Origin: the human T2T-CHM13v2.0 reference genome, Homo sapiens
DNA: 64,000 nt
Reading direction: 5' to 3' (one strand)
NCBI RefSeq assembly: GCF_009914755.1
Contig: NC_060931.1
The notes under the pieces are model-generated. The model ran no database searches, had not been told where the DNA came from, and worked only from the letters and a program-made list of their open reading frames with translations. The position numbers and the translations under genes were made by a program. Within the stretch, counting starts at the first letter, position 1; every line of letters starts with the position of its first letter. Positions 48,451 to 48,735 of this stretch are shown one piece after another.

Positions 48451-48565
48451 CATAGGGGTTGATGGACGCCCCCTCCCCGCCCTCCCACTATGGACTTACG
48501 CTGGCAGCCCATAGGGGTTGATGGACACTCCCCCGACCCCCGACTATGGACTTACGCTGGCAGCC
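48451..48565. repeat. Tandem duplication (59 + 56 nt) containing the LE3 exon 5' splice site
   Basis: cataggggttgatggac..actatggacttacgctggcagcc occurs at 48451-48509 and 48510-48565. Confidence 0.95.
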
Positions 48566-48735
48566 CAGGGGGTCGGTGGCGCTTAGTCCATAGTGGTTGG
48601 GTTTGCACTGGTCGCATTTGGCTCCTTCCACGTTCTCTTTACAAAGGCACTGGCCAGCCACAGACCCTAAGGCAGGATCAGAGTGGCTCACACAAATGCC
48701 ACCAGATATGGTCCCATCGGGGTCACATTCACAAG
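48556..48735 (-). CDS. LAMB4: LAMB4 exon (~11), LE3: [14 protein letters not shown]...TDPLGCQ-P
   Basis: ccAG|CTTGT ... CAGC|GTaagt; 180 nt; phase 1 to 1. Confidence 0.95.

What the first reader, a model, noticed from the sequence alone, without database searches (positions are those of the whole stretch)
48451..48575. Tandemly duplicated 5' splice site: two identical donors 56 nt apart at the end of the LE3 exon
Seen: on the minus strand, GGGCTGCCAGC|GTAAGTCCATAGT occurs at the real donor (exon end 48556) and again with exon end 48500. The copy also resembles the last exon codons (CCACCGACCCCCTGGG vs CCATCAACCCCTATGGG, a CpG-decay-like pattern). A third partial unit stops at the 3' TSD (catagggg) of the adjacent Alu. 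Inference: the two donors have the same local U1 complementarity, so they could compete. Using the distal one adds 56 nt and shifts frame, giving ...[34 protein letters not shown] in the next exon. That would be an NMD-sensitive, possibly lineage-specific switch on LAMB4 output. A G-run tract lies between the donors and could bias the choice via hnRNP F/H.
Basis: partly seen in the sequence, partly recalled or inferred. Interest (0 to 1): 0.8.

Follow-up and report, generated by a model that had tools for sequence, protein, structure and literature searches.

The report
Duplicated splice donor in LAMB4 intron
A 56-base stretch spanning the end of one LAMB4 exon has been copied in tandem, leaving a second identical splice donor just inside the intron; this arrangement is known from a few genes such as F7, and the extra donor is probably silent or little used.

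Summary
On the minus strand a 24-nt string spanning the exon/intron junction occurs exactly twice, 56 nt apart (donors after 48556 and 48500). None is expected by chance. TRF calls a period-56, 2.0-copy repeat. The unit is single-copy in the genome. It is absent from four paralogous junctions. Only 1 of 23 LAMB4 donors in the window is reiterated.

No tool here sees RNA, and no exon ending at 48500 appears in the hub's gene table. The arrangement belongs to a described class: repeats whose first unit spans an exon-intron boundary (F7, CBS, IFI6, LMNB2, PDGF; PMC1557585). In F7 the identical downstream donors are silent. Globin-type experiments predict the opposite at 45 nt or more (PMC3413131), so this case is a natural test of the two rules.

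New here: the copies are 41/41 identical outside a divergent G-tract. An exonic arm is complementary to both donor flanks and is predicted to mask the second donor more strongly. Verdict: new member of a known kind, modest interest.

The parts
48556..48735 (-). LAMB4 exon encoding one complete laminin EGF-like module (LE3), 180 nt, phase 1-1
   Evidence: Hub annotation. AG and GT flanks confirmed. The frame is open. Pfam EGF_laminin E 2.9e-13 covering profile 1-49/49, and it is the third LE after Laminin_N.
48512..48567 (-). Repeat copy 1 (56 nt): last 12 exon bases, authentic donor, G-tract 1 and 16-nt tail
   Evidence: TRF period 56. In-register alignment.
48453..48511 (-). Repeat copy 2 (59 nt): intronic copy carrying the pseudo-donor, G-tract 2 and 16-nt tail. 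The next two bases (48452-48451) still match the start of a unit.
   Evidence: 60 alignment columns with 8 differing, all inside 19 columns of the G-tract. 41/41 are identical elsewhere. P = 5e-4 under uniform placement.
48550..48558 (-). Authentic 5' splice site AGC|GTAAGT (cleavage after 48556)
   Evidence: Annotation.
48494..48502 (-). Reiterated 5' splice site AGC|GTAAGT (cleavage would be after 48500). Identical to the authentic one from -11 to +13.
48530..48541 (-). Two G5 runs between the donors (+15 to +26 of the authentic donor). Also complementary to the exon end 48568-48579 (11/12).
   Evidence: pair I3.
48469..48486 (-). Four-run G-tract with 1-nt loops (canonical G-quadruplex motif), +14 to +31 of the pseudo-donor
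   Evidence: It is one of only 2 such motifs on this strand in the 64 kb.
48579..48601 (-). Exonic arm (codons for P-N-H-Y-G-L-S-A) complementary to the region -2..+15/+20 of both donors
   Evidence: pair I4 is 10/10 with 48543-48552, and pair I1 is 15/17 with 48480-48496. Duplex energies are -26.9 and -32.3 kcal/mol. 2 of 150 shuffles reach 15/17. In the GC-matched GU-site null, 10/789 and 2/789 are as stable.
48191..48450 (+). Alu-type SINE (body to 48426, degenerate A-rich tail 48427-48450) abutting the end of the repeat
   Evidence: 21 copies of 200 nt or more in the window. 10/202 non-CpG differences from their majority consensus. Flanked by the 8-nt direct repeat at 48183-48190 and 48451-48458 (family D4). 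The name 'Alu' is recalled, not returned by a tool.
45332..45441 (-). Next exon. With the 56-nt extension the frame hits a stop at 45405-45403.

Best explanation
A short tandem duplication spans the exon/intron junction of the LAMB4 LE3 exon. It is a two-copy, minisatellite-like repeat of 56-59 bp. It copied the last 12 exon bases and the start of the intron, which placed a second, locally identical GTAAGT donor 56 nt inside the intron.

The upstream copy is the working donor. The downstream copy is a 'pseudo-site' of the kind described for F7 intron 7. It is competent in principle but normally silent or used at a low level. Any transcripts that do use it carry +56 nt and a premature stop, and would be removed by NMD.

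Its silence most likely rests on three things:
- the preference for the first donor that ends the defined exon (F7-type behaviour);
- the G-runs between the two donors, which would be exonic for the second donor and intronic for the first;
- possibly an RNA helix between an exonic arm and the flank of the second donor.

Shown: the duplication, its uniqueness, the direction of copying and the frame consequence. Inferred: silence and its causes.
For: The duplication is real and unique.
- establish the repeat.
- It has one place in the 3.1-Gb assembly.
- 1 of 23 LAMB4 donors in the window has a copy within 500 nt.

Direction of copying.
- The same phase-1 junction after GC[Q/R/K] is present in 4 of 4 paralogous loci.
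- None of them shows a second donor copy in the 130 intron bases printed (inspected by eye).
- The chr3 paralogue ends with almost the same exon bases. The exon copy is therefore ancestral and the intronic copy derived.

Frame and stop codon.

Annotation: no exon ends at 48500 in the hub's RefSeq table, whose extra exons of other transcripts (12 transcripts in all) are 12485-13101 and 25644-26039.

Precedent (PMC1557585; abstract, Introduction and Discussion read).
- In F7 four to eight identical pseudo-donors spaced 37 bp apart are functional but unused.
- In LMNB2 (100-bp unit) and PDGF (81-bp unit) only the authentic donor is used.

Silencers: silencer-like elements placed between competing donors suppress the intron-proximal one, for 26 of 31 elements tested (PMC1877881 passages).

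Structure prediction.
- In the equilibrium ensemble, positions -2..+15 of donor 2 pair with the exon arm at P about 0.85-0.99.
- The probability that the 9-mer is open is 2e-7 for donor 2 against 2.3e-4 for donor 1 in a 436-nt context.
Against: - No RNA evidence of any kind was available here, so silence is inferred, not seen.
- LAMB4 appears in a table of genes poorly represented in expressed-sequence databases (PMC2394760 passage). NMD isoforms are also under-annotated. Absence from RefSeq is therefore weak evidence.
- Experiments with two identical strong donors show almost exclusive use of the intron-proximal (downstream) copy once the spacing is 45 nt or more (PMC3413131 passages). The spacing here is 56 nt.
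- In two of the five natural precedents listed in PMC1557585 (IFI6/6-16 and CBS), the first two pseudo-sites are used as well.
- The second donor is followed by a four-run G-tract. Downstream intronic G-runs are generally regarded as enhancers of the preceding donor (general knowledge, recalled).
- The structural asymmetry depends on the folding span. With pairs limited to 80 nt, donor 2 is predicted 10-fold MORE open than donor 1 (8e-3 against 8e-4). Both donors are predicted to be largely paired.
Confidence: 0.62

Rival explanations
1. One reading: the two identical donors really compete. A meaningful fraction of LAMB4 pre-mRNA is spliced at 48500, giving a +56-nt, NMD-sensitive isoform. This lowers or tunes LAMB4 output, with hnRNP F/H on the G-runs setting the ratio.
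For: - The donors are identical from -11 to +13.
- A stop codon that should trigger NMD is confirmed.
- Identical strong donors 45 nt or more apart splice almost wholly from the downstream copy in globin and adenovirus substrates (PMC3413131 passages).
- IFI6 and CBS use reiterated donors (Introduction of PMC1557585).
- A G4-type G-tract lies at +14..+31 of donor 2.
- Scarce transcript data for LAMB4 could hide such an isoform.
Against: - No exon ending at 48500 appears in the hub's RefSeq table.
- No paper on such an isoform appears in the listings.
- F7, LMNB2 and PDGF keep their reiterated donors silent.
- The G5 runs between the donors would be exonic for donor 2, and elements in that position suppress the intron-proximal donor.
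- The donor has only six contiguous matches to U1, with mismatches at -1 and -3 (base-pairing scheme recalled). The high double occupancy that drives the downstream preference is therefore not assured.
- Donor 2 is predicted to be more strongly base-paired.
Confidence: 0.2
2. Silence of the twin donor is enforced mainly by RNA structure. The exonic arm 48579-48601 pairs across donor 2 (-2..+15) more stably than across donor 1. U1 therefore reaches only the upstream copy. Conditions that open the helix would switch on the NMD isoform.
For: - Inverted repeats: 15/17 with donor 2's flank and 10/10 with donor 1's flank.
- Duplex energies are -32.3 against -26.9 kcal/mol.
- 2 of 150 dinucleotide shuffles reach 15/17.
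- Only 2 of 789 GC-matched GU sites (1 of 3000 unmatched) have an exon-donor duplex as stable as donor 2's. The helix at donor 1 is the strongest of the 23 LAMB4 donors.
- The 181-nt fold has z = -2.26, and 3 of 200 shuffles fold as well.
- A single-copy construct keeping only unit 2 is predicted to be almost fully masked, at 5e-9.
Against: - This is prediction only, with no covariation or probing data.
- The result reverses when pairing span is limited to 80 nt.
- The exon arm is coding sequence whose motif is shared with paralogues, so part of the complementarity may be incidental.
- G-quadruplex formation in the adjoining tract, proteins and co-transcriptional U1 binding are not modelled.
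- The F7 study found no structure explaining its pseudo-site silence (Discussion).
Confidence: 0.12
3. The two-copy state is one allele of a copy-number-variable repeat (a true VNTR, as in F7 and CBS). Other human haplotypes would carry one or three donors.
For: - It has tandem, G-rich, minisatellite-like unit architecture.
- The units are 41/41 identical outside the G-tract. This suggests recent duplication or ongoing homogenisation, set against an adjacent Alu with 5.0% non-CpG divergence.
- The F7 and CBS repeats are polymorphic in copy number (Introduction of PMC1557585).
Against: Only one assembly is available, and it holds only 2.0 copies. Nothing here measures variation.
Confidence: 0.15

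Closest known systems
F7 intron 7 37-bp minisatellite (Borensztajn et al. 2006, PMC1557585)
   Same: The first repeat unit spans the exon/intron boundary, so the authentic donor is followed by copies identical in sequence. Use of a copy would disrupt the message. The upstream copy is the annotated one.
   Different: F7 has 5-9 polymorphic units of 37 bp, of which only 4 bp are exonic. LAMB4 has 2.0 units of 56-59 bp, of which 12 bp are exonic. In F7 silence is shown experimentally with 50 constructs, whereas here it is inferred. The LAMB4 units differ in a G-tract and face an exonic complementary arm.
CBS intron 13 and IFI6 (6-16) intron 2 boundary-spanning minisatellites (as summarised in the Introduction of PMC1557585)
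   Same: Donors are reiterated by a junction-spanning repeat.
   Different: [quoted passage not shown] Whether LAMB4 behaves like these or like F7 is open.
LMNB2 (100-bp unit) and PDGF intron 4 (81-bp unit) minisatellites (same source)
   Same: Donors are reiterated at spacings of tens of bases, and only the authentic one is used.
   Different: They have 10-18 units. The original papers were not read here.
Engineered duplicated 5' splice sites in globin/adenovirus substrates (Hodson et al. 2012, PMC3413131, and work cited there)
   Same: Two identical donors compete for one acceptor, at a comparable spacing (56 nt here, against the 45-nt threshold reported).
   Different: Those substrates use consensus or strong globin donors and short introns, and they splice from the downstream copy. 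The LAMB4 annotation uses the upstream copy, and the intron is about 3.1 kb.
5' splice sites masked by a stem (MAPT exon 10, SMN2 exon 7 TSL2; recalled, not read here)
   Same: Predicted helix covering the +4..+6 positions of a donor.
   Different: In those cases the stem is local and experimentally verified. Here the partner is 30-90 nt upstream in the exon, and the evidence is thermodynamic prediction only.

Membership tests
Boundary-spanning tandem repeat that reiterates a donor (F7 IVS7 type) | Head-to-tail tandem repeat | tested here: met
   TRF period 56, 2.0 copies, score 176. Alignment.
Boundary-spanning tandem repeat that reiterates a donor (F7 IVS7 type) | First unit contains the exon/intron junction | tested here: met
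   Copy 1 (48567-48512) contains the annotated junction 48556|48555.
Boundary-spanning tandem repeat that reiterates a donor (F7 IVS7 type) | [quoted passage not shown] | tested here: met
   The 24-mer is identical, with 2 of 2 matches at 0 mismatches.
Boundary-spanning tandem repeat that reiterates a donor (F7 IVS7 type) | Several units, polymorphic in number (VNTR) | tested here: not met
   Only 2.0 units in this assembly. No decayed third core lies beyond the Alu (738 of 2000 shuffles score as well). Polymorphism is not testable with one genome.
Boundary-spanning tandem repeat that reiterates a donor (F7 IVS7 type) | Only the most upstream donor used in normal transcripts | not testable with these tools
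   The hub annotation shows only 48556. No RNA data are available.
Alternative 5' splice site coupled to NMD (unproductive splicing) | Alternative donor introduces a stop codon more than 50-55 nt upstream of a later exon junction | tested here: met
   The stop is at 45405-45403, 71 nt before the exon end, with 14 further coding exons in the window.
Alternative 5' splice site coupled to NMD (unproductive splicing) | Transcript evidence that both donors are used | not testable with these tools
   None appears in the hub's RefSeq table. Literature listings show none.
Alternative 5' splice site coupled to NMD (unproductive splicing) | Conservation of the alternative site across species | not testable with these tools
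   No vertebrate orthologues are reachable. It is absent from 4 of 4 human paralogous junctions.
Structure-masked 5' splice site | Complementarity across the donor beyond chance | tested here: met
   15/17, reached by 2 of 150 shuffles. Duplex of -32.3/-33.1 kcal/mol, matched by 2 of 789 GC-matched GU sites.
Structure-masked 5' splice site | Covariation or mutational proof that the helix controls splicing | not testable with these tools
   No orthologues and no experiments are available.
Alu SINE insertion | Dispersed multi-copy element with A-rich tail and target-site duplication | tested here: met
   21 copies of 200 nt or more in the window. A-rich tail at 48427-48450. 8-nt direct repeat (family D4). 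Subfamily was not determined, because no consensus library is held.

The most novel reading that the evidence does not exclude
The twin donor is held silent by a long-range helix with an exonic arm (48579-48601). That helix pairs across positions -2..+15 of the downstream copy and lies next to a G-quadruplex-type tract. This would explain why LAMB4 escapes the rule that the downstream of two identical donors 45 nt or more apart wins. It would also make the locus a structure-gated switch: opening the helix, through helicases, G4 folding or hnRNP F/H binding, would divert LAMB4 pre-mRNA into a +56-nt NMD isoform.
Probability: 0.08. Interest if true: 0.6.

Novelty: new member of a known kind. Interest (0 to 1): 0.3.

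Why it matters
- **A natural test case.** Two published rules for choosing between identical donors contradict each other. One says the first donor met wins (F7 scanning model). The other says the intron-proximal donor wins once spacing reaches 45 nt or more (globin/adenovirus substrates). LAMB4 offers a natural two-copy case at 56 nt, simpler than the multi-copy minisatellites.
- **Variant interpretation.** A mutation of the authentic donor would probably activate the twin, giving +56 nt and a frameshift. The alternative would be an in-frame skip of the 180-nt LE3 exon. The first outcome happens in F7.
- **Read mapping.** The last 12 bases before both donors are identical. Short-anchored junction reads and small indel calls in this 117-bp repeat are therefore ambiguous.

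None of this shows a function for the twin.

Tried and rejected
1. **'Decoy' idea.** The idea was that copy 2 draws the exonic arm away and so frees the authentic donor. Co-transcriptional truncations looked suggestive: the arm pairs with donor 1's flank until donor 2's flank is transcribed, then switches. However, single-copy versions made in silico give donor 1 exactly the same predicted accessibility with or without copy 2 (2.3e-4 in both). Rejected.
2. **A decayed third core beyond the Alu.** The best local match is 6 nt, and 738 of 2000 shuffles do as well. Rejected.
3. **Selection on the 24-25-nt identical core.** In the other register, all 8 differences fall in the G-tract and the 16-nt tail is just as identical as the core. 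The pattern therefore points to a fast-changing G-tract or a young duplication, not to conservation of the donor.
4. **Dispersed repeat or paralogue-derived sequence.** The unit has one place in the genome. Rejected.
5. **Frame rescue by a nearby alternative acceptor.** No AG offset is apparent by eye in the 25 bases printed before and 20 bases after the acceptor at 45441. Not pursued further.
7. **Orthologue dating, population copy number and RNA-seq** could not be attempted, because no vertebrate genomes, variant data or expression data are reachable.
8. One search's first alignment block had an off-by-one register of mine. It was redone, and only one search's numbers are used for that test.
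9. **Follow-up literature.** Searches for follow-up work were seen as listings only. Supplements of papers were not opened, so junction tables there may bear on usage.

Full report
**What is there**

Read on the minus strand, which is the sense strand of LAMB4, the annotated exon 48556-48735 ends ...GGGCTGCCAGC and the intron begins GTAAGTCCATAGT. The same 24 bases recur 56 nt further on, so a second GT lies directly after 48500.
- The 24-mer has exactly 2 matches in the window even when 3 mismatches are allowed, and none in 100 dinucleotide shuffles.
- Tandem Repeats Finder reports 48451-48567 as a period-56 repeat of 2.0 copies, 86% matches, score 176.
- The repeat finder gives in-register pairs of 42 nt (88%) and 32 nt (81%).
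- The 161-nt region has a single place in the 3.1-Gb assembly, which is itself. It is therefore not part of a dispersed repeat.
- Of the 23 annotated LAMB4 donors in the window, only this one has a copy (2 or fewer mismatches over -6..+8) within 500 nt of intron.

**The exon**

All 23 annotated exons have the expected AG and GT (one GC) flanks, and they join into one open frame. The exon in question is 180 nt, phase 1-1. It encodes one complete laminin EGF-like module (Pfam EGF_laminin, E 2.9e-13, profile 1-49 of 49).

**Consequence of using the second donor**

Splicing from 48500 to the annotated acceptor at 45441 adds 56 nt. The stop is at 45405-45403, 71 nt before the end of that exon, and 14 more coding exons follow in the window. 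By the established 50-55-nt rule this is an NMD substrate.

**Anatomy of the repeat**

The register matters.
Units 1 and 2 then show 46 matches, 9 mismatches and 5 gap columns in 60 columns, with one run of 25 identities.
- *The alternative register* is core, then G-tract, then a 16-nt tail. The array is then exactly two copies (48567-48512 and 48511-48453), identical at 41 of 41 positions outside the G-tract. All 8 differing columns (5 substitutions and a 3-nt gap) fall inside 19 columns of G-tract. Under uniform placement P = 5e-4.
- *The exon-codon resemblance* to the intronic tail is marginal. 2.7% of random 17-mers from the window (1096 of 40000) and 90 of 3328 LAMB4 exon 17-mers score as well.

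So 12 exon bases are certainly duplicated, and the 'third partial unit' can equally be the tail of copy 2.

The repeat ends where an Alu-type element begins.
- The body is 48191-48426 on the plus strand, and the degenerate A-rich tail is 48427-48450.
- An 8-nt direct repeat flanks it at 48183-48190 and 48451-48458.
- Beyond the Alu there is no decayed third core.

**Direction and age**

The same junction, phase 1 after G-C-[Q/R/K], is present at all four paralogous loci found in the genome: two on chr3, one upstream on chr7 and one on chr1.
- None shows a second copy of its donor in the 130 intron bases printed, which I inspected by eye.
- The chr3 paralogue's exon ends with nearly the same bases as LAMB4.
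- The exon copy is therefore ancestral and the intronic copy derived.

The adjacent Alu differs from the majority consensus of 21 window Alus at 10 of 202 non-CpG positions (5.0%) and at 8 of 26 CpG columns. If the duplication were as old as that insertion, I would expect about 3-4 differences in the 41 non-G-tract positions. This is my arithmetic's rate, and Poisson P of zero differences is 0.02-0.04. The duplication is therefore probably younger than the Alu, or the copies have been homogenised. The heavily divergent G-tracts show their own internal micro-repeats; for example, TRF finds a period-7 repeat at 48530-48544. They point to a locally unstable tract. Without orthologues the age stays open.

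**What is known about such arrangements**

The literature search found a direct precedent: Borensztajn et al. 2006 (PMC1557585). I read the abstract, Introduction and Discussion.
- The F7 gene has a 37-bp minisatellite whose first unit spans the exon 7/intron 7 boundary.
- The four to eight downstream donors are identical to the authentic one and functional when tested. They are never used unless the upstream ones are destroyed.
- The Introduction lists further natural cases. IFI6 (6-16) and CBS intron 13 also use the two nearest pseudo-sites. In LMNB2 (100-bp unit) and PDGF (81-bp unit) only the authentic donor is used.

LAMB4 is thus a new member of a described class. It is unusual only in having two units and in carrying 12 exonic bases.

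The opposite expectation also exists. Hodson et al. 2012 (PMC3413131; passages read) report three relevant points.
- Transcripts with two identical strong donors splice almost wholly from the intron-proximal (downstream) copy.
- That use reaches about 100% at separations of 45 nt or more.
- The bias depends on high U1 occupancy of both sites.

At 56 nt spacing that rule predicts use of 48500, which is not what the annotation shows. Passages of Yeo et al. 2007 (PMC1877881) report that silencer-type elements placed between competing donors suppress the intron-proximal one (26 of 31 tested). A G-triplet control was the strongest suppressor in their 3' splice-site reporter. The two G5 runs between the LAMB4 donors would therefore favour the annotated upstream donor. 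A four-run G-tract with 1-nt loops at +14..+31 of the second donor could act the other way. It is one of two such motifs on that strand in the 64 kb.

An exonic segment (48579-48601, the codons for P-N-H-Y-G-L-S-A) is complementary to the stretch just after each donor.
- It matches 10 of 10 with 48543-48552 and 15 of 17 with 48480-48496.
- The exon end 48568-48579 is 11/12 complementary to the G5 runs.
- 2 of 150 dinucleotide shuffles of the 341-nt region reach 15/17.
- The 181-nt fold has z = -2.26, and 3 of 200 shuffles fold as well.
- Duplex energies of the arm with the two donor regions are -26.9 and -32.3 kcal/mol.
- Measured in a uniform way, the donor 1 helix (-27.7) is the strongest of the 23 LAMB4 donors.
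- Among GC-matched random GU sites, 10 of 789 reach donor 1's value and 2 of 789 reach donor 2's. Unmatched, the counts are 9 and 1 of 3000.

In the equilibrium ensemble of a 436-nt context, the arm pairs with donor 2's flank (P about 0.99). The chance that the 9-mer -3..+6 is open is 2e-7 for donor 2 against 2.3e-4 for donor 1. This asymmetry comes from the first bases of the G-tract, outside the identical 24-mer. There are two caveats. With pairs limited to 80 nt the order reverses (8e-3 against 8e-4), and everything here is prediction. I also tested whether copy 2 might free donor 1 by capturing the arm. Single-copy versions show no change for donor 1, so I reject that idea.

**Is the second donor used?**

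I cannot see RNA.
- The hub's RefSeq table lists no exon ending at 48500. Its extra exons of other transcripts (12 transcripts in all) are 12485-13101 and 25644-26039.
- Searches for LAMB4 with 'splice' (72 papers, 25 listed), 'nonsense-mediated' (9) and 'laminin beta 4' with 'splic' (4) showed nothing on a LAMB4 isoform in titles or abstract starts (listings only, no supplements opened).
- One passage places LAMB4 in a table of genes poorly represented in expressed-sequence databases (PMC2394760). Absence of an annotated isoform is therefore weak evidence.

**Verdict**

It is most likely a junction-spanning tandem duplication that left a silent or rarely used twin donor, as in F7, LMNB2 and PDGF (confidence about 0.6). 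It has no positive evidence here. The kind is already described, so I rate it a new member of a known kind with modest interest. Its value is as a clean two-copy natural test of conflicting donor-choice rules, and as a caution for variant interpretation and read mapping at this exon.

Noticed in passing
window 53197-53260 (minus strand), donor of the LE2 exon 53197-53385: The second-strongest exon-to-donor duplex among the 23 LAMB4 donors (-26.1 kcal/mol). An exonic stretch pairs across this donor region as well.
   Followed up: partly
window 12873-12883 (minus strand), donor of exon 12881-13101: This LAMB4 intron begins with GC instead of GT (CAG|GCAAGA), so it is a GC-AG intron.
   Followed up: no
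window 48608-48620 and 48693-48705: A 13-nt inverted repeat, 92% complementary, lies entirely inside the LE3 exon (pair I2).
   Followed up: no
window 48427-48450: The A-rich tail of the Alu has decayed into an (AACC)-like short repeat. A looser 13-nt version of the flanking direct repeat (2 mismatches) is also visible at 48178-48190 and 48446-48458.
   Followed up: partly
L006 (own genome, chr3, about 23 kb from the chr3 paralogue L003): A second chr3 copy of the LE3-type exon with an in-frame TGA, 45% identical to the LAMB4 exon. It looks like a decayed paralogue copy.
   Followed up: no
window, both strands: Only 2 canonical four-run G-quadruplex motifs occur per strand in 64 kb. One of the two on the minus strand sits directly after the duplicated donor.
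   Followed up: partly
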